Source: a virus. From it: 12,895 nucleotides of DNA. The stretch is from UHGV virus genome UHGV-0267677, one strand, 5' to 3'. Shown here in pieces: positions 4,149 through 12,631 of the stretch. The notes below the pieces were generated by a model. It ran no database searches. It had not been told where the DNA came from and was given only the letters and a program-made list of their open reading frames with translations. Every line of letters begins with the position of its first letter. The stretch's first letter is position 1. The translations under genes and the position numbers were made by a program.

Positions 4149-4550
4149 TCGACAGCCAGAATTGGGAGTCTCTATTCGTCTGGCGGCTAAAGGTGATATG
4201 GAAATCGTTATGTTTTGGCCTGAGGTAGTTGTAACTGTTGTAGCAACTATGGCTGTGATCATCATGGTGTCCATTTACTGGGGTTGACGACATGATTTAT
4301 CCGGCGCTATATTCTGTGCGTTGCCGCAAAATCGGCACACGGGATTGGCGTCCCGGGATACTACTCAACGCATACCGCGTTAAGCGGTTTTTTTGTGCGC
4401 TAAGCACGGCTATGCCCAAATTATGGTGGGCTGTGTGAGGGCTTCTTCGGAAGCGCCGGGTTTGAGTAGCCGGTTACGCCAACCTTACACAGTTCACCAC
4501 CAGTCGATTGGCGTCGTTGGTGGTGATGGTTAACCTGATGAGGTGATACT

Positions 4551-5159
4551 ATGACTACTCAATTAGCATTCCACAAAACGACGTTTACCCCGATTTGCCA
4601 CAATAACAGAATTTGGCTTACTGCCACTGAAGTTGGTTTAGCACTGGAATATGCGGACGATAAAGCAGTTCAGCGCATTTACTCTCGGCACTCAGATGAA
4701 TTCACAGATATGATGACAAGGGTGGTCAAAGTGACCACCCCTCGTGGAATGCAGGAGTCTCGAGTATTTAGCCTTCGCGGAGCCCATTTGATCGCCATGT
4801 TTGCTCGTACTCCTGTGGCCAAAGAATTCCGCCGCTGGGTTCTGGATATTCTCGATCGAGAAGTTCAACAATCCCCAATCACAAAACAATTCACTGATAA
4901 CGAACTTTGCACACTCGCCTGGTTATGGCGAGCAAGTGATACGATGTTAACCGCCTGCCAGAACGTTACGCCCCTTCTTCAGGTCGCAGAGCATCGCGAA
5001 GCAGGTAGATTCACTTCAATCGAACAAGAATATCCTCGGATACTCAACAGGGCGCGAGAAATCCTTGCCAGAGAAACGGCGCATGTAAAATTCCAACCGT
5101 GGCAGGATGATAAGTGGAGTCGTGTGTTACCATATTTCCGTCAGAATCTGTTGCAATAA
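4551..5159 (+). CDS. Bro-N domain protein (phage antirepressor/KilA-N-like DNA-binding family), C-terminal half unassigned
   Basis: SD GAGGTGA 5 nt upstream of ATG 4551. N-terminal region ...NRIWLTATEVGLALEY...RVFSLRGAHLIAMFARTPVAKEFRRWVLDIL fits the Bro-N signature I recall (...YSLIMRSRKPEAKAFRKWV...). Confidence 0.75.
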   Translation: MTTQLAFHKTTFTPICHNNRIWLTATEVGLALEYADDKAVQRIYSRHSDEFTDMMTRVVKVTTPRGMQESRVFSLRGAHLIAMFARTPVAKEFRRWVLDILDREVQQSPITKQFTDNELCTLAWLWRASDTMLTACQNVTPLLQVAEHREAGRFTSIEQEYPRILNRAREILARETAHVKFQPWQDDKWSRVLPYFRQNLLQ

Positions 5160-8159: not shown

Positions 8160-9257
8160 TTAGAACTGGTAAACCAGACCTACAGCAACGATGTCATCAG
8201 TGCTTACACCGAGTGCTTTAGTGAAGTCATTTTTGTCAAGCAGGTTGATTTTGTAATCAACGAAAGTAGACATATTTTTGTTGAAGTAATAGGTTGCACC
8301 TACATCAACATATTTGACTAAGTCCTGATCGCCCCATACTCCAAGATCCTTACCTTTAGATTGCAGGTAAGCAACGGACGGACGCAGACCGAAATCGAAC
8401 TGATATTGTGCAACAGCTTCGAAGTTTTGGGCTTTATTAGCAACGAAGTGATCAGCAAATACAGTCATATTCTGGGTTTCAGAATAGGTAGTGGCCAGGT
8501 AAATGTTGTTAGCGTCATATTTCAGACCTGCGGCCCAAACTTCTGCATTTTTACCGGAAGCAAATACTTCAGGAAGAACTTTCCCTGCATTAACTTGAGT
8601 GTCGGTACGATCAGATTTCGCATAAGTTGCACCGATACCGAATCCTTCGTATTCATAGGTAGCAGAGAAACCGAAGCCATCACCGTTACCTTCAGTGTAG
8701 TTATCGAAATCGCTACGATCGTTTTTGCCTTGGTACTGAGCAGCAAAGTTCAGACCATCAACCAGACCAAAGAAGTCGTTGTTACGATAGGTTGCAACAC
8801 CAGTGGTGCGACCAGTCATGAACACATCTGTTTGGGTCCAGGTATCGCCACCGAATTCTGGCAGAACGTCAGTCCACGCACCGATGTCGTATGCTACACC
8901 GTAGTTACGGCCGTAATCGATTGAGCCGTAGTCACCGAATTTCAGGCCTGCAAATGCAAGACGGGTTTTGTCTTTGGAGGAACCTTGAGATTCAGCGCGG
9001 TTGCCTTTGAATTCATATTCCCACTGACCGAAACCAGTCAGTTGATCGTTGATTTGGGTTTCACCTTTGAAGCCAAGACGGGCATAAGTAGTATCACCAT
9101 CATCTGCATCATTAGAGGAGAAGTAGTGCTTAGCATTAACTTTCCCGTACAGATCCAGCTTGTTACTGTCTTTATTATAAATTTCAGCTGCCTGAGCAGA
9201 CATCGCCATCAGTACTGATGCAGCTACAGCAGAAATTGCCACTGTTAATTTTTTCAT
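8160..9257 (-). CDS. nmpC: Outer-membrane general porin, NmpC/Lc (OmpC/OmpF family), apparently intact
   Basis: 365 aa with signal peptide [30 protein letters not shown], the typical porin block LYGKV...[26 protein letters not shown], and C-terminal ...VGLVYQF. Sits between Q and the holin on the opposite strand, as nmpC does in DLP12. Confidence 0.95.
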
Positions 9258-9830: not shown

Positions 9831-10046
9831 ATGAAATCCATGGATAAGTTAACAACGGGTGTCGCCTATGGCACCTCAGCAGGTAGTGCCGGTTACTGGT
9901 TTTTACAGCTGCTCGATAAAGTCACGCCCTCACAGTGGGCAGCAATAGGTGTGCTGGGTAGCCTGGTATTTGGCCTGCTGACGTACCTGACAAACCTTTA
10001 TTTCAAGATTAAAGAAGACAAGCGTAAGGCTGCACGGGGAGAGTAA
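9831..10046 (+). CDS. essD: Class II holin, phage 21 S-type pinholin with dual-start motif (EssD/EssQ-like)
   Basis: 71 aa [31 protein letters not shown]...[11 protein letters not shown] with the Met1-Lys-Ser-Met4 dual start, two TM segments and a charged C-terminus. SD GAGGTGGGG upstream. Confidence 0.9.
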
Positions 10047-10050
10047 TTCA

Positions 10051-10365
10051 ATGACTCAAAAATATGAACTGATTGTGAAAGGGATCCGCAATTTTGAGAA
10101 TAAAGTTACGGTAACTTTAGCGTTACGGGACAAAGAACGCTTTGACGGTGAAATTTTTGACCTGGACATCTCGCTGGACCGTGTTGAAGGTGCCGCGCTG
10201 GAGTTTTATGAGGCAGCAGCCAGAAGGAGCATCAGACAGGTCTTCCTGGATGTTGCTGCCGGGTTATGTGAAGGGGACGAGCTGTTGCCAGAAACGCGCC
10301 CCTGTTCAGAGGCGCGGTATACCATAAAAATTAACAGTTCTGATAACTCGATTACGGGTTGTTAG
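10051..10365 (+). CDS. Conserved hypothetical acidic protein between holin and endolysin (YdfR/DUF1327-like by position and size)
   Basis: 104 aa, starting 4 nt after the holin stop with SD GGAGAG. I recall a ~103-aa gene (ydfR) in the same position in the Qin-type lysis cassette; sequence identity was not verified. Confidence 0.7.
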   Translation: MTQKYELIVKGIRNFENKVTVTLALRDKERFDGEIFDLDISLDRVEGAALEFYEAAARRSIRQVFLDVAAGLCEGDELLPETRPCSEARYTIKINSSDNSITGC

Positions 10366-10420
10366 CTTTTTGCAGTTGGCTTTCCGGTATCTTTCATTGG
10401 TAGCATCCTGATAAATATCC

Positions 10421-10954
10421 ATGAGCGCAAAAATCAAATACGCCCTGTCAGCTGCTGTTCTGGCGCTGATTGCTGCAGGCGCGTCTGCTCCTCAGATACT
10501 TGACCAGTTTCTGGACGAAAAAGAGGGTAACCACACAACGGCATACCGCGATGGTTCCGGCATCTGGACCATCTGTCGGGGGGCCACGATGGTGGATGGA
10601 AAACCCGTTTTTCCCGGTATGAAACTGTCGAAGGAAAAATGCGACCAGGTCAACGCCATTGAGCGTGATAAGGCGCTGGCATGGGTGGAGAAAAACATCA
10701 AAGTGCCATTGAGCGAACCCCAGAAAGCGGGGATCGCGTCATTCTGTCCGTACAACATTGGTCCCAGTAAGTGTTTCCCGTCGACGTTTTATAAACGAAT
10801 TAATGCAGGTGATCGCAGGGGAGCGTGTGAGGCGATTCGCTGGTGGATTAAGGACGGTGGCAGAGACTGCCGTATTCGTTCAAACAACTGCTACGGTCAG
10901 GTTGTTCGCCGTGACCAGGAGAGCGCATTAGCCTGTTGGGGTATCGACAGATAA
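10421..10954 (+). CDS. SAR endolysin (T4-lysozyme-like muramidase with N-terminal signal-arrest-release domain)
   Basis: 177 aa. N-terminal weakly hydrophobic Ala/Gly-rich SAR segment YALSAAVLALIAAGASAP, then the catalytic triad spacing E-x8-D-x5-T in DEKEGNHTTAYRDGSGIWTICRG. Pairs with the pinholin upstream. Confidence 0.9.
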   Translation: MSAKIKYALSAAVLALIAAGASAPQILDQFLDEKEGNHTTAYRDGSGIWTICRGATMVDGKPVFPGMKLSKEKCDQVNAIERDKALAWVEKNIKVPLSEPQKAGIASFCPYNIGPSKCFPSTFYKRINAGDRRGACEAIRWWIKDGGRDCRIRSNNCYGQVVRRDQESALACWGIDR

Positions 10955-11044
10955 GCAGGATATTCTGCTGAAAAATGCGGGATGGCCACGCGAGCGGATA
11001 ACACGAAATCCTGCTAACTGGTAAAACAGAAGTGAATAAAAGTA

Positions 11045-11081
11045 AAACCCCGATTGCGCGAACAGTCGGGGTTTTGTTTTT
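11045..11081 (+). terminator. Rho-independent terminator ~90 nt downstream of the endolysin
   Basis: Stem aaaccccga/tcggggttt (11045-11053 and 11066-11074) with a 12-nt loop, followed by tgttttt. Confidence 0.6.
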
Positions 11082-11115
11082 GGACTAATTCTGTGGATGC
11101 GCATGGGGATCAGTC

Positions 11116-11313
11116 ATGCCAGTAAAGACTAACACGACGAAAGATAAATTTGGAGATGATCTGATGATAAAAGCAGAAACCACTCCGCAGGGTGCGGATG
11201 ATGCCGCAAAAATCATCGCAGTATGCCGTGGTATCAGGCACATACTGACGCCAGTTGCATGGATTATTTGTACCGCACTGATTGCATACACAACGATTTA
11301 TTTAAACAGATGA
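11116..11313 (+). CDS. Possible small membrane protein (65 aa) in the endolysin-Rz insert; weakly supported
   Basis: ORF with a C-terminal hydrophobic helix ILTPVAWIICTALIAYTTIYL. Followed, with ATGA overlap, by a 28-aa hydrophobic mini-ORF (11310-11396, MSAEFVRATVFAIRIVAIAVLVWAIRWW). No family recognised. Confidence 0.3.
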   Translation: MPVKTNTTKDKFGDDLMIKAETTPQGADDAAKIIAVCRGIRHILTPVAWIICTALIAYTTIYLNR

Positions 11314-11773
11314 GCGCTGAATTTGTTCGGGCAACCGTGTTTGCTATTCGTATTGTGGCAATTGCTGTTCTGGTCTGGGCAATCCGCTGGTGGTGAGAGA
11401 GTGGCCGGAGGGCTGCGACAGCAGGCCCGTCGGGGCGAAACGGGCAAAGAAAAGCGCAACGCAAATAAAACAATAAAGTTACATATATTTTGTAAGATAT
11501 TATTTGAATTTGTTTTGAATTATCGGAATGCATATTATTTACCATAATACAATAATTTAATTTCCATTATTATCATGGCGTTGTGCGAATAAAATATCAT
11601 GCCAGTTTTATTTAGTTTACAATTTTAATGTTAATTATGACAACATAATGATAACACAAAAGGATGAGAAAACTCACGGTACCAGAAGCGGCGGACGACA
11701 GCGACGGACAGCTGCATGACCGCTACGTAATACCCGTTCATCAAAATCACGGAGTATCAGAACAGGTGGCTGC

Positions 11774-12238
11774 ATGAACCGCATAACGACGTACGTAATA
11801 ATATTATTGCTGGCAGTGACTGCAGCGCTGGCATGGACAACGGACAATTACTACCGTAACGCTGTCACTTACAAAGAGCAGCGCGACAAAAACGCCGGAG
11901 AGCTGAAACTGGCGAACGCCACCATTACTGACATGCAGCAGCGTCAGCGTGATGTTGCTGCGCTCGATGCAAAGTACTCGAGAGAATTAGCCAATGCGAA
12001 AGCTGAAAATGAAACTCTGCGCGCTGATGTTGCCGCTGGTCGTCGTCGGTTGCACATCAAAGCAGTCTGTCAGTCAGTGCGTGAAGCCACCACCGCCTCC
12101 GGCGTGGATAATGCAACCAGCCCCCGACTGGCAGACACCGCTGAACGGGATTATTTCACCCTCAGAGAGCGGCTGATGACGATGCAGATGCAACTGGAAG
12201 GGGCACAGGAGTATATCCGCACTCAGTGCATTAAGTAG
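11774..12238 (+). CDS. Spanin inner-membrane subunit Rz (i-spanin)
   Basis: 154 aa with N-terminal TM helix (YVIILLLAVTAALAW), then a long charged coiled-coil-like periplasmic domain. SD AGGTGG upstream; contains the embedded Rz1 frame. Confidence 0.85.
   Translation: MNRITTYVIILLLAVTAALAWTTDNYYRNAVTYKEQRDKNAGELKLANATITDMQQRQRDVAALDAKYSRELANAKAENETLRADVAAGRRRLHIKAVCQSVREATTASGVDNATSPRLADTAERDYFTLRERLMTMQMQLEGAQEYIRTQCIK
11994..12176 (+). CDS. Spanin outer-membrane lipoprotein subunit Rz1 (o-spanin), embedded out of frame in Rz
   Basis: Signal peptide with lipobox (LMLPLVVVG/C) followed by a proline-rich mature region (VKPPPPPAWIMQPAPDWQTP), entirely within Rz in the +1 frame. The true start may be the second Met. 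Confidence 0.8.
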   Translation: MRKLKMKLCALMLPLVVVGCTSKQSVSQCVKPPPPPAWIMQPAPDWQTPLNGIISPSESG

Positions 12239-12280: not shown

Positions 12281-12631
12281 ATGCCATCACGAATCCCACG
12301 CGCCTGCCGTAAGCGTGGATGTGCAGGTACAACCACAGACAGTTCTGGTTACTGCGATAAACATCGTGGCGAAGGATGGGTACAGCATCAACGCGGACTG
12401 AGCCGCCACCAGCGTGGCTATGGCTCGAAATGGGATGCCATACGTGCGCGCATACTGAAGCGTGATAATCATCTGTGTCAGAACTGCCTGCGCAATGGGA
12501 GAGCCGTTGAAGCCAGAACTGTGGACCACATCATTCCGAAAGCTCATGGTGGCACGGATGCAGACAGTAACCTGCAGAGTCTGTGCTGGCCCTGTCATAA
12601 AGCAAAAACAGCGCGCGAACGCATCAATTGA
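12281..12631 (+). CDS. HNH homing-type endonuclease (packaging-associated)
   Basis: 116 aa with Cys pairs (CRKRGC...CDKH, CQNC, CWPCH) and the HNH core DHIIPKAHGGTDADSNLQSLCWPCH. Lies immediately upstream of the small terminase, as in HK97-like cos phages. Confidence 0.9.
   Translation: MPSRIPRACRKRGCAGTTTDSSGYCDKHRGEGWVQHQRGLSRHQRGYGSKWDAIRARILKRDNHLCQNCLRNGRAVEARTVDHIIPKAHGGTDADSNLQSLCWPCHKAKTARERIN

What the first reader, a model, noticed from the sequence alone, without database searches (positions are those of the whole stretch)
10955..11773. ~0.8-kb insertion splitting endolysin from Rz/Rz1, with a terminator, small hydrophobic ORFs and an AT-rich tract
R and Rz are normally adjacent; here they are 820 bp apart. 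The insert holds a strong intrinsic terminator (11045-11081) that would stop late transcription before Rz unless antiterminated, then a 65-aa ORF with a C-terminal TM helix translationally coupled (ATGA) to a 28-aa hydrophobic mini-ORF, then a very AT-rich, ORF-poor ~200-bp tract (about 11460-11660) with promoter-like composition. This could be a small membrane-peptide toxin or type I TA-like unit, a degraded moron, or a regulatory element controlling spanin expression.
Basis: seen in the sequence. Interest (0 to 1): 0.5.

Follow-up and report, generated by a model that had tools for sequence, protein, structure and literature searches.

The report
Antisense-guarded membrane-peptide genes between lysis genes
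The gap between the cell-wall enzyme gene and the outer-membrane lysis genes of this prophage holds two real, conserved genes for tiny membrane proteins. In front of them sits what looks like a relative of the phage P22 "sar" antisense-RNA switch, and behind them a stretch of AT-rich DNA with no known relative.

Summary

The insert has two parts.

**Part 1 (10955-11396)** is shared with other E. coli and Salmonella prophages.
- The hairpin at 11037-11082 is a two-way terminator that resembles the terminator of the P22 sar RNA.
- Codons 4-7 of the 65-aa ORF carry, on the minus strand, an extended -10 (TGTTAGTCT). It aligns exactly with the annotated P22 Psar -10.
- Its key bases are invariant in 12 aligned cassettes, although the encoded amino acids vary.
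- This predicts a roughly 80-nt antisense RNA (about 11119 to 11037, minus strand) covering the ribosome-binding site and AUG of the 65-aa gene.
- The 65-aa protein (A) and the ATGA-coupled 28-aa protein (B) both show substitution patterns typical of coding sequence. Both are single-pass membrane peptides with no known family.

**Part 2 (11397-11773)** is about 22% GC in its core, rich in promoter-like matches, and has no homologue in any collection searched. It separates B from Rz; in relatives the two lie 1 nt apart.

R-Rz gaps holding such hairpin-plus-small-ORF arrays are common: 871 of 5,426 E. coli genomes carry one variant.

No RNA or toxicity data exist, so the mechanism is inferred. 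I rate this a new variant of a known kind.

The parts
10421..10954 (+). R, lysozyme-type endolysin with an N-terminal SAR-like segment (left boundary, context)
   Evidence: PF00959 at E 1.2e-23 and phrog_7 endolysin. It is 88% identical to the R genes of L001 and L003.
10955..11036 (.). Conserved flank 3' of R, including the near-palindrome GCAGGATATTCTGC (10955-10968)
   Evidence: It aligns with L034, L001 and with Stx, GER2 and PhiR5_2 phages. Function unknown.
11037..11082 (.). Two-way intrinsic terminator hairpin (GC core 11048-11053 / 11066-11071), homologous to the P22 sar terminator
   Evidence: Folding energy -23.5 kcal/mol, z -5.4. The Rfam sar model RF00262 hits 11132..11040 on the minus strand at 32.5 bits, E 6e-5, below the gathering score of 43. 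The hairpin is kept with A-U to G-C exchanges across contexts. The A-tract, which is the minus-strand T run, is always present; the plus-strand T run is missing in L034 and L056.
11037..11119 (-). Predicted sar-like cis-antisense RNA of about 80 nt: a 5' hairpin GCAUG-loop(anti-SD)-CAUGC followed by the terminator
   Evidence: The start was inferred 7 nt downstream of the conserved -10, as in the P22 annotation (sar 15021-15090, Psar from 15097). No expression data.
11126..11134 (-). Predicted extended -10 of the antisense promoter (minus strand TGTTAGTCT; plus strand AGACTAACA, codons 4-7 of the 65-aa ORF)
   Evidence: The columns that are invariant in alignment A3 are A, T, A and C (A93, T97, A98, C100 in P22 numbering); A101 is nearly invariant. 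They coincide with the annotated P22 Psar -10, TGCTATACT. The pattern A-N3-TA-N-C-[AG] occurs at the homologous place in each of 14 regions of about 140 nt; one region (L014) has a second match. Codon 5 encodes 5 different amino acids but always ends in T.
11101..11119 (+). mRNA leader hairpin (GCAUG 11101-05 / CAUGC 11115-19) with the SD GGGGA (11105-11109) at the stem-loop junction (GGGA in the loop) and the AUG in the stem
   Evidence: The GCATG...CATGC arms are conserved in at least six lineages while the loops vary. On its own the fold is not better than shuffles, so it is weak.
11116..11313 (+). Gene A: 65-aa single-pass membrane protein (variable 16-aa N-terminal extension plus a conserved 49-aa core from M17 at 11164)
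   Evidence: Among 23 unique coding sequences, codon positions 1 and 2 are nearly invariant and position 3 varies 0.3-0.6. There are 34 clusters, named as E. coli or Salmonella wherever a source gives a name, and only 12 representatives among 1.84 billion. AF2 gives a disordered 1-21 and one helix 24-64. No Pfam, NCBIfam or PADLOC hit.
11310..11396 (+). Gene B: 28-aa hydrophobic peptide, ATGA-coupled to A, with no SD of its own
   Evidence: Among 11 unique coding sequences, synonymous to non-synonymous differences are 241:236 in frame, against 44:420 and 42:408 in the other frames. It hits the C-terminal TM of phrog_4493 and phrog_3246 weakly (E 2e-4 and 8e-4); the 47-aa L034 ORF, which I read as a paralogue, hits the same two families and phrog_1115 far more strongly.
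11397..11773 (.). Orphan block: a GC-rich 50 bp, an AT-rich core (11450-11650, about 22% GC), then normal-GC DNA. The foreign block continues to 11845, inside Rz
   Evidence: No match in E. coli genomes, phages or plasmids, and none by exact 21-24-mers in viral, genome or metagenome contigs. It is present nearly identically in two metagenome contigs, L004 and L005.
11664..11777 (+). 37-aa ORF overlapping the Rz start (ATGA); probably not a gene
   Evidence: The only hit among 5.8 billion proteins is a 37-aa sequence 97% identical to it. The AAGG lies directly against the ATG. No family hit.
11774..12238 (+). Rz i-spanin (right boundary), with Rz1 embedded at 11994-12176. It has its own SD, AGGTGG, at 11764-11769
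   Evidence: PF03245 at E 1.3e-50 and phrog_13. The first 72 nt are unlike E. coli relatives and 76% like SPN3UB Rz.

Best explanation
The R-Rz gap holds a mobile accessory cassette followed by an unrelated orphan spacer.

**The cassette (about 11037-11396)**
- A two-way terminator hairpin.
- A leader of about 35 nt.
- A two-gene operon for single-pass inner-membrane micro-proteins: A (65 aa) and B (28 aa, translationally coupled through ATGA).
- The hairpin, the leader and the first seven codons of A together form a relative of the phage P22 sar antisense-RNA gene. An extended -10 promoter on the minus strand (TGTTAGTCT, 11134-11126) should start an RNA of about 80 nt at about 11119. That RNA runs leftward over the AUG and Shine-Dalgarno of A and ends at the hairpin.

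**Inferred working**
- In a lysogen, the terminator blocks read-through from R, and the antisense RNA pairs with any A leader that is made. It probably does so through the complementary GCAUG-loop-CAUGC hairpins, which keeps A silent. B depends on A for translation, so it is silent too.
- After induction, Q-modified polymerase reads through the hairpin, and the antisense RNA then only limits the dose of A and B, as sar limits Ant.
- A and B are membrane-active accessory peptides whose amount must be restrained. They could be lysis-timing modifiers, exclusion factors or toxin-like peptides; which of these is unknown.

**The orphan spacer**
- In relatives the last small ORF ends 1 nt before the Rz AUG, so the switch could also reach the spanin.
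- Here the 377-bp orphan AT-rich block (11397-11773) has uncoupled Rz. The block arrived together with a foreign Rz 5' end, and Rz uses its own SD.

**Shown versus inferred**
- Shown: the insertion and its boundaries, that A and B are coding, the hairpin, the conservation of the -10 bases, and their alignment to the P22 annotation.
- Inferred: that the RNA is made, that it represses, and what A and B do.
For: **Insertion and boundaries**
- R and Rz overlap in L003. L001 carries only part 1, between R and Rz. L002 carries 11039-11396 after a different (M15) endolysin.
- The hairpin plus A also occur after tail-fibre genes in Salmonella, after int/AlpA, and between baseplate genes. This makes it a portable unit.

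**Coding**
- A: codon positions 1 and 2 are nearly invariant, position 3 varies 0.3-0.6.
- B: synonymous to non-synonymous 241:236 in frame against about 43:414 out of frame.
- AF2 gives one long helix, 24-64.

**Antisense RNA**
- Rfam sar hit on the minus strand, 32.5 bits, E 6e-5 in a local search.
- The P22 record annotates sar at 15021-15090, ant from 15091, and Psar at 15097-15125.
- In the 12-sequence alignment, the invariant columns after the start codon are the -14, -12, -11 and -7 positions of TGnTAnnnT, and the -15 position is nearly invariant. All sit at the annotated Psar -10.
- The pattern is found at the homologous place in each of 14 regions, with one extra match in L014.
- Codon 5 is ACT, CCT, AAT, ATT or TCT: five different amino acids, always T at the third position.
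- The minus-strand T run is universal. The plus-strand T run is absent in L034 and in the distant GC-rich L056, where the neighbouring genes called (L056) or read from the ORF list (L034) are all on the plus strand.
- The same hairpin, leader and -10 head the small-ORF arrays of Stx2 phage, SPN3UB, vB_EcoS-569R3, L034 and L046.
- Predicted RNAs are 71-100 nt with a 5' hairpin plus a terminator.

**Coupling to Rz**
- TGGTGGTGAnATG or TGGTGGTAAnATG occurs in L001, L034, L055, L057, L058 and L059.
Against: - There are no transcript data of any kind.
- The Rfam sar score is below the gathering threshold, and the model gave no hit at E <= 1 in 12 related loci.
- The window's -10 hexamer TAGTCT matches only 3 of 6 consensus positions, although it has the TG extension and the key bases. 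The -35 is poor (TCCAAA).
- Part of the conserved pattern could reflect a K-x-N/S protein motif.
- MAFFT tends to align identical letters, which inflates the apparent invariance between the A-type, B'-type and P22 rows.
- No plus-strand promoter for A was found, so it is unclear what the antisense RNA would act against in a lysogen.
- In 'type B and C' arrays the A core lacks its own cassette, so A is tolerated without a dedicated antisense RNA.
- The Hfq-crosslinking list for E. coli O157 Sakai shows no Sp5 peak near where I expect the lysis genes just downstream of stx2; I did not fetch the Sp5 lysis region. The two Sp9/Sp10 peaks I mapped lie after Rz. This is weak evidence, because Sakai prophages have a different R-ant-Rz layout and I know of no evidence that cis-antisense RNAs of the sar type bind Hfq.
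- The function of A and B is entirely inferred.
Confidence: 0.6

Rival explanations
1. This is an ordinary moron. The hairpin is just a transcription terminator and recombination boundary after R, and A and B are hitch-hiking small membrane-protein genes expressed only as part of the late transcript. There is no antisense RNA; the conserved bases near the start of A reflect protein or translation-initiation constraints.
For: The hairpin is a generic GC-rich terminator, and similar hairpins follow R in thousands of E. coli prophages. The Rfam sar score is below threshold and there are no hits in the other loci. The window's -10 is weak and there is no -35. The A core occurs without its own cassette in type B and C arrays.
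Against: Conservation at synonymous and amino-acid-changing sites falls exactly on the TGnTAnnnT positions, which align with an annotated promoter in P22. A minus-strand-only terminator lies between plus-strand genes in L034 and L056. The cassette always sits at the head of the small-ORF array, whatever the first ORF is.
Confidence: 0.22
2. This is a true type I toxin-antitoxin module. A, B, or the pair is a membrane-depolarising toxin. The antisense RNA is the antitoxin, and the unit serves prophage maintenance or abortive infection rather than lysis.
For: The proteins are small and hydrophobic (65 and 28 aa, one TM each). A cis-antisense RNA is predicted over the RBS and AUG, the same geometry as SymR/symE. 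The unit is mobile and found at several prophage sites. The family is narrow and fast-moving.
Against: No plus-strand promoter for the toxin mRNA was found. There is no hit to any Pfam type I toxin family or to PADLOC. The A core exists without a dedicated antisense RNA inside late operons. Frameshifted or truncated A copies exist (L051, L053, L054, P0015), as expected for any accessory gene. Toxicity is untested.
Confidence: 0.25
3. This is a lysis-cassette component. A and B (and the B', D and E peptides of relatives) are accessory lysis proteins, such as modulators of the pinholin or of SAR-endolysin release. Alternatively they act as leader peptides that set Rz/Rz1 translation by coupling.
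For: They lie between the SAR endolysin and the spanin in many lambdoid phages, including Stx phages. The last ORF ends 1 nt before the Rz AUG, and its WW codons form the Rz SD. In L002-type prophages A-B follow an M15 endolysin and precede a small lipoprotein.
Against: A also occurs far from lysis genes: after tail fibres, beside int, and among baseplate genes. Many functional cassettes have R directly next to Rz. There is only a very weak holin-family hit, for a neighbouring 50-aa ORF of L034 and not for A or B. In this window the coupling to Rz is broken.
Confidence: 0.25
4. The orphan block 11397-11773 is itself a functional element, for example a promoter for Rz and downstream genes, or for a long antisense transcript across B and A ending at the hairpin. 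Under this reading it is not junk left by illegitimate recombination.
For: It holds the best sigma-70-like matches of the region on both strands, scoring 11.0 (plus) and 12.1 (minus) against 5 sites >= 11 on the plus strand of the 12.9-kb window. The minus-strand fold has z = -2.5. The block is kept identical, or nearly so, in two independent metagenome contigs.
Against: AT-rich DNA produces promoter-like matches by composition. There is no homologue anywhere, so no conservation test is possible. There is no Rfam hit. The three copies are nearly identical and so carry no information.
Confidence: 0.2

Closest known systems
Phage P22 sar antisense RNA controlling ant (Rfam RF00262; immI region)
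   Same: The layout is the same: upstream gene, terminator hairpin, short leader with SD, start codon, then an antisense extended -10 inside the first codons of the target gene. The RNA starts at or next to the AUG and ends at the hairpin. The hairpin loop and stem sequences are visibly related (for example CCCCGGACUGUUCCCGCAGCCGGGG in L022 against GCCCUGACUGUUACCGCAGUUGGGGC in P22). The -10 bases align with the annotated Psar.
   Different: The target is a tiny membrane protein inside the late or lysis region, not the antirepressor. The 5' part of the RNA is unrelated, as it must be for a cis-antisense RNA. The predicted length is about 80 nt against 68-69. The Rfam score is below the family threshold. 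The RNA has not been observed.
Type I toxin-antitoxin systems with a 5'-overlapping cis-antisense RNA (SymR/symE; also hok/sok, ibs/sib)
   Same: There is a small hydrophobic single-TM peptide gene. The RBS and start codon are covered by a short antisense RNA whose promoter lies just inside the ORF. The unit is mobile and found in prophages.
   Different: There is no sequence relation to any known toxin family. No promoter for the peptide mRNA was found. Toxicity is untested. There are two coupled peptides. The unit sits inside a Q-dependent late operon.
Lambdoid morons (e.g. HK97 gp15, lambda bor/lom)
   Same: It is extra DNA at gene boundaries of the late operon, carried in different contexts by different prophages and encoding small membrane proteins. 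The HK97 and lambda examples are from my own knowledge.
   Different: Classical morons have their own promoter upstream and a terminator downstream. Here the terminator is upstream, and the only promoter found by conservation points the other way.
Small TM ORFs between R and Rz of Stx and other lambdoid phages (phrog_6632, phrog_1115, phrog_3246, phrog_4493; 'hypothetical protein')
   Same: B has weak hits to phrog_4493 and phrog_3246. The 47-aa L034 ORF, which I read as a paralogue of B, hits the same two families and phrog_1115 strongly. The hairpin, the flank 3' of R and the position just before Rz are all shared.
   Different: Gene A is not in any sequenced phage of the phage collection. 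The window also has the orphan block between B and Rz.

Membership tests
P22 sar RNA family (RF00262) | Score at or above the Rfam gathering threshold (43 bits) | tested here: not met
   32.5 bits, E 6e-5 in a 301-nt search. No hit at E <= 1 in 12 related loci.
P22 sar RNA family (RF00262) | Antisense promoter inside the first codons of the target gene, with the RNA start next to the AUG | tested here: met
   The conserved TGnTAnnnT aligns with the annotated Psar -10 (15097-15105). The window site is 11126-11134. This rests on sequence conservation only, not on expression.
P22 sar RNA family (RF00262) | Rho-independent terminator hairpin between the upstream gene and the target RBS, usable on the minus strand | tested here: met
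   Folding energy -23.5 kcal/mol. The A-tract is universal. Two lineages have a minus-strand-only terminator.
P22 sar RNA family (RF00262) | Target is the antirepressor gene ant | tested here: not met
   The target is a 65-aa membrane protein with no family.
Type I toxin-antitoxin | Small (below about 60-70 aa) hydrophobic peptide with a TM helix | tested here: met
   A is 65 aa (core 49) with one helix, 24-64. B is 28 aa and hydrophobic.
Type I toxin-antitoxin | Antisense RNA complementary to the toxin mRNA | tested here: inconclusive
   Predicted from a conserved promoter and terminator. No transcript data.
Type I toxin-antitoxin | Own promoter for the toxin mRNA | tested here: not met
   There is no sigma-70-like site between or upstream of the hairpin on the plus strand in the window or in 9 relatives.
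Type I toxin-antitoxin | Peptide is toxic when over-expressed, and the RNA neutralises it | not testable with these tools
   Needs expression experiments.
Type I toxin-antitoxin | Homology to a described toxin family (Hok, Ldr, Ibs, TisB, ShoB, Fst ...) | tested here: not met
   0 Pfam, 0 NCBIfam and 0 PADLOC families at E <= 1.
Moron | Found in some related phages and absent from others at a gene boundary | tested here: met
   Absent in L003. Present after different upstream genes in L001, L002, L006-L014 and L016-L054.
Moron | Own promoter upstream and terminator downstream | tested here: not met
   The terminator is upstream. No plus-strand promoter was found, and there is no terminator after B.
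Holin / antiholin | Match to a holin family, or a typical holin TM topology | tested here: not met
   No Pfam or PHROG lysis-family hit for A or B. Each has a single TM. The cassette already has an S21-type pinholin at 9831-10046.
Spanin (Rz/Rz1 or u-spanin) | N-terminal TM plus a periplasmic coiled coil, or a lipobox lipoprotein | tested here: not met
   A has a C-terminal TM and no lipobox. B is a bare TM. Intact Rz/Rz1 follow at 11774-12238.

The most novel reading that the evidence does not exclude
Lambdoid prophages, including Stx phages and hundreds of E. coli genomes, may carry a class of element I found no description of in the searches made here. The class would be arrays of one to four genes for single-pass membrane micro-proteins (families A, B, B', C, D, E). 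Each array would be headed by a portable sar-type antisense-RNA switch and inserted at late-operon boundaries, above all between endolysin and spanin. The switch would make them type I-toxin-like, dose-limited effectors of lysis timing, exclusion or host killing, and by translational coupling it could also gate spanin synthesis.
Probability: 0.25. Interest if true: 0.75.

Novelty: new variant of a known kind. Interest (0 to 1): 0.55.

Why it matters
If the antisense RNA is real, the sar type of switch is not a peculiarity of the P22 immunity region. It would be a portable module that lambdoid phages place in front of tiny membrane-protein genes inside the lysis cassette.

That would add a regulatory layer, and a set of uncharacterised membrane peptides, to one of the best-studied gene cassettes in virology. 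The same elements sit in Shiga-toxin phages, where lysis timing governs toxin release.

It would also blur the line between phage lysis accessories and type I toxin-antitoxin modules.

The experiment is cheap: a Northern blot or dRNA-seq, one reporter fusion, and peptide expression. If the RNA is not made, the region is simply a moron with two small conserved genes plus junk DNA, which is ordinary.

Tried and rejected
1. **Known families.** Pfam, NCBIfam, PADLOC and PHROGs were scanned for A, B, the 37-aa ORF, the minus-strand 93-aa ORF (Pfam only) and the neighbours' small ORFs. They gave nothing, or only 'unknown function'.
2. **Remote homologues of A.** A full HMMER profile search of 1.84 billion representatives found 12 hits, all the same narrow family. 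tblastn of A against 50,697 phage records found none. The GTDB species-representative scan found none.
3. **Origin of the orphan block.**
   - blastn found nothing in E. coli genomes, phages or plasmids.
   - Five exact 21-24-mers found nothing in viral, genome or metagenome contigs.
   - A protein search with the 37-aa ORF returned only a 97%-identical copy.
   - Low-stringency tblastn of all array peptides against the block found nothing.
   - blastn against all fetched loci and the rest of the window found nothing.
4. **Orphan as a mobile element.** There are no terminal inverted or direct repeats beyond chance 10-12-mers. Rejected.
5. **Orphan 3' end as a remnant.** I considered a remnant of an endolysin, an Ant C-terminus or a B-type ORF. 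Translation in all frames shows stops and no hydrophobic stretch (and reading of the sequence). Rejected.
6. **Structured RNA in the orphan block.** Plus strand z = -1.1, minus strand z = -2.5, no Rfam hit. Not convincing.
7. **A plus-strand promoter for A.** None found.
8. **A 57-aa longer form of B** (11223-11396). The upstream part changes freely, following A's synonymous sites, and the phrog match covers only the last 26 residues. Rejected.
9. **Literature.** I searched for an sRNA or ORFs between R and Rz, read a review of phage sRNAs, the Pas sRNA preprint, and the EcOnc list of Hfq-bound sRNAs in E. coli O157 Sakai. None describes an sRNA or small ORFs in the R-Rz gap. EcOnc11 and EcOnc12 lie after Rz, EcOnc22 lies in tail genes, and the Pas sRNAs lie next to the holin-lysozyme operon or elsewhere in the prophage, not in the R-Rz gap.
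10. **Consensus folding of the predicted RNAs.** It recovers only the terminator stem, because the 5' parts are unrelated. I therefore built no covariance model.
Full report
**1. What is there**

The window is the late region of a DLP12/Qin-like lambdoid prophage of E. coli type. Seven complete E. coli genomes cover more than 80% of it at 95-98% identity.

The gene order around the finding is as follows:

| Coordinates | Feature |
|---|---|
| 9831-10046 | S21-type pinholin |
| 10051-10365 | DUF1327 |
| 10421-10954 | R, lysozyme with a SAR-like N-terminus |
| 10955-11773 | the gap under study |
| 11774-12238 | Rz, with Rz1 embedded at 11994-12176 |
| 12281-12631 | HNH endonuclease |

The gap is 819 bp.

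**2. It is an insertion, and it has two parts**

- In the close relative L003 (NZ_CP195804), R and Rz overlap by 4 bp. Similarity to the window ends at 10947 and resumes at 11846.
- L001 (strain SCU-171) has 10405-11396 at 88% identity, and then Rz follows at once.
- L002 (strain E21845/O/A) has only 11039-11396. There it follows an unrelated M15 endolysin and precedes a small lipoprotein and HNH.

So 10955-11396 is shared, and the mobile core begins at the hairpin.

The rest, 11397-11773, has no match in any of the following:
- 5,426 complete E. coli genomes
- 50,697 phage records
- 72,556 plasmids
- the viral, genome-representative and metagenome contig collections, searched with exact 21-24-mers

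The first 72 nt of Rz are also foreign to E. coli. They are 76% like the Rz of Salmonella phage SPN3UB. The foreign block is therefore 11397-11845.

The whole arrangement recurs with a single mismatch in two metagenome contigs, so it is not an assembly artefact.

**3. The two small ORFs are genes**

*Gene A (65 aa)*
- It has 34 clusters of homologues, named as E. coli or Salmonella wherever a source gives a name.
- A full profile search of 1.84 billion representative proteins adds only one clearly divergent member, from a GC-rich organism.
- Over 23 distinct coding sequences of the 49-residue core (from M17, 11164), codon positions 1 and 2 are almost invariant and position 3 varies in 30-60% of sequences. 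This is strong purifying selection.
- AlphaFold gives a disordered N-terminus (1-21) and a single helix 24-64, with pLDDT 81-91 over residues 31-60.
- Read from the sequence, this is an amphipathic stretch followed by a C-terminal TM helix, with the basic residues on the N-terminal side.

*Gene B (28 aa)*
- It starts in the ATGA overlap and has no Shine-Dalgarno of its own.
- Among 11 distinct coding sequences, synonymous to non-synonymous differences are 241:236 in frame, against 44:420 and 42:408 in the other two frames.
- The replacements are conservative (I/V/L, E/D, T/A/M).

Neither protein, nor any neighbouring small ORF, matches Pfam, NCBIfam or PADLOC. PHROGs gives only 'unknown function' families.

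**4. Context elsewhere**

A is not tied to lysis genes.
- In Salmonella it lies after the tail-fibre (SASA) gene at the prophage end, followed by DUF1353 or by a 55-61-aa TM ORF.
- In L014 it follows int/AlpA.
- In L026-L030, L046-L052 and L054 it sits between what look like baseplate or tail genes (read from the ORFs; no family scan was run on them). There it is sometimes followed by one or two 'PNWKF...IRWW' peptides.

In 15 IMG/VR prophage contigs with the same lysis cassette as the window (L031-L045), the R-Rz gap holds four small TM ORFs of 50, 47, 49 (the A core) and 28 (B) aa.

Sequenced phages also have such gaps:

| Phage | Small ORFs in the R-Rz gap |
|---|---|
| SPN3UB | 38 aa and 45 aa |
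| Stx2 phage Stx2_EH2201 | 45 aa |
| vB_EcoS-569R3 | four small ORFs, including B |
| GER2 | a 37-aa B variant |
| PhiR5_2 | two small ORFs |

The Stx2-type arrangement is present over at least 80% of its length in 871 of 5,426 E. coli genomes. A gap between R and Rz filled with small TM ORFs is therefore common, and the window holds one variant of it.

In all these cases except PhiR5_2, the last ORF ends 1 nt before the Rz AUG (TGGTGGTGAnATG or TGGTGGTAAnATG). Its WW codons double as the Rz Shine-Dalgarno. This explains why otherwise unrelated peptides share the ending IRWW. In the window this link is cut by the orphan block, and Rz has its own AGGTGG (11764-11769).

**5. The hairpin is more than a terminator**

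An Rfam scan gave one notable hit: P22 sar RNA (RF00262) on the minus strand, 11132..11040. It scored 32.5 bits against a gathering score of 43, with E 6e-5 in a 301-nt search. Three further observations turn this lead into a hypothesis.

*(a) The minus-strand terminator is the conserved function.*
- The hairpin travels with the first small ORF into every context.
- It always has an A-tract on its 5' side, which is a T run for a minus-strand terminator.
- The plus-strand T run is missing in L034 and in the distant GC-rich relative L056. There the neighbouring genes called (L056) or read from the ORF list (L034) are all on the plus strand, so no minus-strand gene needs a terminator.

*(b) The layout matches the P22 annotation.*
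- The P22 record annotates sar at 15021-15090 (minus), its terminator at 15021-15058, ant from 15091, and Psar at 15097-15125.
- I aligned P22 with the window and ten other cassettes. After the start codon, the only invariant columns before the conserved TTTGGA region are A, T, A and C; the next A is nearly invariant. On the minus strand these are T(-7), A(-11), T(-12) and G(-14), plus T(-15), of an extended -10, TGnTAnnnT.
- They lie exactly on the annotated Psar -10, TGCTATACT.
- The pattern A-N3-TA-N-C-[AG] occurs at the homologous place in each of 14 regions of about 140 nt; one region (L014) has a second match.

*(c) The constraint is on the DNA, not the protein.*
- In the A-type cassettes the element spans codons 4-7 (5-8 in L056, which has one extra codon). 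Codon 5 is ACT, CCT, AAT, ATT or TCT: five different amino acids, always T in the third position.
- Codon 6 is always AAC or AGC.
- The window's element is TGTTAGTCT (11134-11126).

*What this predicts.*
- Placing the start 7 nt downstream, as in P22, gives an RNA from about 11119 to about 11037, roughly 80 nt.
- In all lineages the predicted RNAs are 71-100 nt, with a 5' hairpin and the terminator.
- In most A-type cassettes the 5' hairpin is GCAUG-loop-CAUGC with the anti-SD in the loop. The mRNA carries the mirror hairpin (11101-11119), with the SD at the stem-loop junction and the AUG in the stem.
- That arrangement suits loop-loop pairing. On its own, however, the small fold is not better than shuffled sequence.
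- The same hairpin, leader and -10 head the arrays in Stx2 phage (TGCTAAAAT), SPN3UB (TGCTAATAT), vB_EcoS-569R3, L034 (TGTTATCCT, in front of the 50-aa ORF) and L046 (TATTCT, TG lost).
- The cassette thus always sits at the head of the array, whatever the first ORF is. The N-terminal 'M-x-x-K-x-N/S' codons belong to the cassette rather than to a protein family.

**6. Weaknesses**

- No transcript has been seen.
- The Rfam score is sub-threshold, and the model finds nothing in 12 related loci.
- The window's hexamer TAGTCT is weak apart from its key bases and the TG. The -35 is poor, as it also is in P22.
- Alignment across the three cassette types is partly circular. Some of the pattern may reflect a K-x-N/S motif.
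- No plus-strand promoter for A was found in the window or in nine relatives. The natural source of A mRNA is therefore the Q-dependent late transcript or leakage through the terminator.
- The published Hfq-crosslinking list for E. coli O157 Sakai shows no Sp5 peak near where I expect the lysis genes just downstream of stx2; I did not fetch the Sp5 lysis region. The two Sp9/Sp10 peaks I mapped lie after Rz, which in those prophages follows an antirepressor gene and a small ORF. I know of no evidence that cis-antisense RNAs of the sar type bind Hfq.

**7. The orphan block**

- It holds the 37-aa ORF that overlaps the Rz start. That ORF has no usable SD spacing, and its only database hit is a 97%-identical copy of itself. 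I do not count it as a gene.
- The block shows no terminal repeats, no Rfam match, and no relation to any small-ORF family of the arrays.
- Its promoter-like matches are among the best in the window, but with 22% GC that proves little.
- The most economical reading is a mosaic joint. A block from an unknown phage, carrying non-coding AT-rich DNA and an Rz 5' end, replaced the B-Rz junction.
- Whether it now provides a promoter cannot be judged without transcript data.

**8. Mechanism and verdict**

- *Best-supported reading (0.6).* This is a portable, sar-type, antisense-guarded operon for two membrane micro-proteins, inserted between R and Rz and followed by an orphan spacer. Terminator and antisense RNA together keep A and B silent in the lysogen and limit their dose late in infection.
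- *What A and B do is not known.* The double lock, the hydrophobicity and the late-operon sites point to membrane-active peptides that are harmful in excess. I rate a toxin-like role, a lysis-modifying role and a plain moron without RNA control at roughly 0.25, 0.25 and 0.22. The first two are not exclusive of the main reading.
- *Membership.* It is not a member of RF00262 by the family's own threshold, nor of any described type I toxin family. It works like both.

**9. Novelty and interest**

I found no description of an antisense RNA or of these peptide families in the R-Rz gap.

I rate it a new variant of a known kind, with interest 0.55. The peptide genes are solid, and the cassette architecture is widespread, including in Stx phages. 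The key regulatory claim rests on comparative sequence evidence only.

Noticed in passing
window 4322-4504 (+), upstream of the ORF at 4551-5159: Rfam finds isrK (58.7 bits) and C4 antisense RNA (74.8 bits) above their gathering scores, just upstream of an ORF at 4551-5159. By position that ORF seems to match the gene annotated 'P22AR C-terminal domain-containing protein' in relative L003; I did not scan it. This looks like a P1/P7-type c4-ant immunity module, which would give the same prophage a second antisense-RNA switch. The same pair is in L002.
   Followed up: partly
window 10955-10968: The near-palindrome GCAGGATATTCTGC sits directly after the R stop codon. It is a perfect GCAGAATATTCTGC in L001 and has one mismatch in the other relatives. 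It is conserved together with the flank 3' of R in L034, L001, Stx2, GER2, PhiR5_2 and vB_EcoS-569R3. Function unknown.
   Followed up: no
window 11114-11123 and 11597-11606: The 10-mer TCATGCCAGT, which includes the start codon of gene A, recurs inside the orphan block. About 15 nt downstream of that copy lies the best minus-strand promoter-like site (TTGTCA-18-TAAACT). A repeat of this length in 1 kb is about as likely as not by chance.
   Followed up: partly
L002 3376-3547 (also L016-L023, L051, L053): In prophages with an M15 endolysin and two holin-like genes, no Rz/Rz1 is annotated. A-B are followed by a 51-60-aa lipoprotein with the lipobox LVGC and several cysteines (phrog_7528, unknown function). 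It could be an outer-membrane lysis component.
   Followed up: partly
window 8160-9257 (-): A 365-aa ORF lies on the minus strand upstream of the holin. By position it seems to match the gene annotated as porin OmpC (between the Q antiterminator gene quuD and the holin) in relative L003; I did not scan the window ORF. This would be a classical moron at the pR' site.
   Followed up: no
L024 3279-3464, L046 2835-3002: A further small TM family (NFSGG[DE]WIVEALKLL...) occurs next to gene A in either order: C then A in L046, A then C then DUF1353 in L024. The micro-protein genes seem to be shuffled as a set.
   Followed up: partly
window 12281-12631: An HNH endonuclease gene follows Rz directly and precedes a P27-family small terminase, as seen in L004. 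The window's late region therefore switches from a DLP12-like to an HK97/P27-like packaging module right after the lysis cassette.
   Followed up: no
L063 525-671 and L064 527-673 (E. coli O157 Sakai Sp10, Sp9): In Sakai prophages an antirepressor gene and a 48-aa ORF lie immediately before Rz (R itself lies outside the stretch I fetched). The Hfq-bound sRNAs EcOnc11 and EcOnc12 of Tree et al. 2014 map just downstream of Rz on the minus strand.
   Followed up: partly
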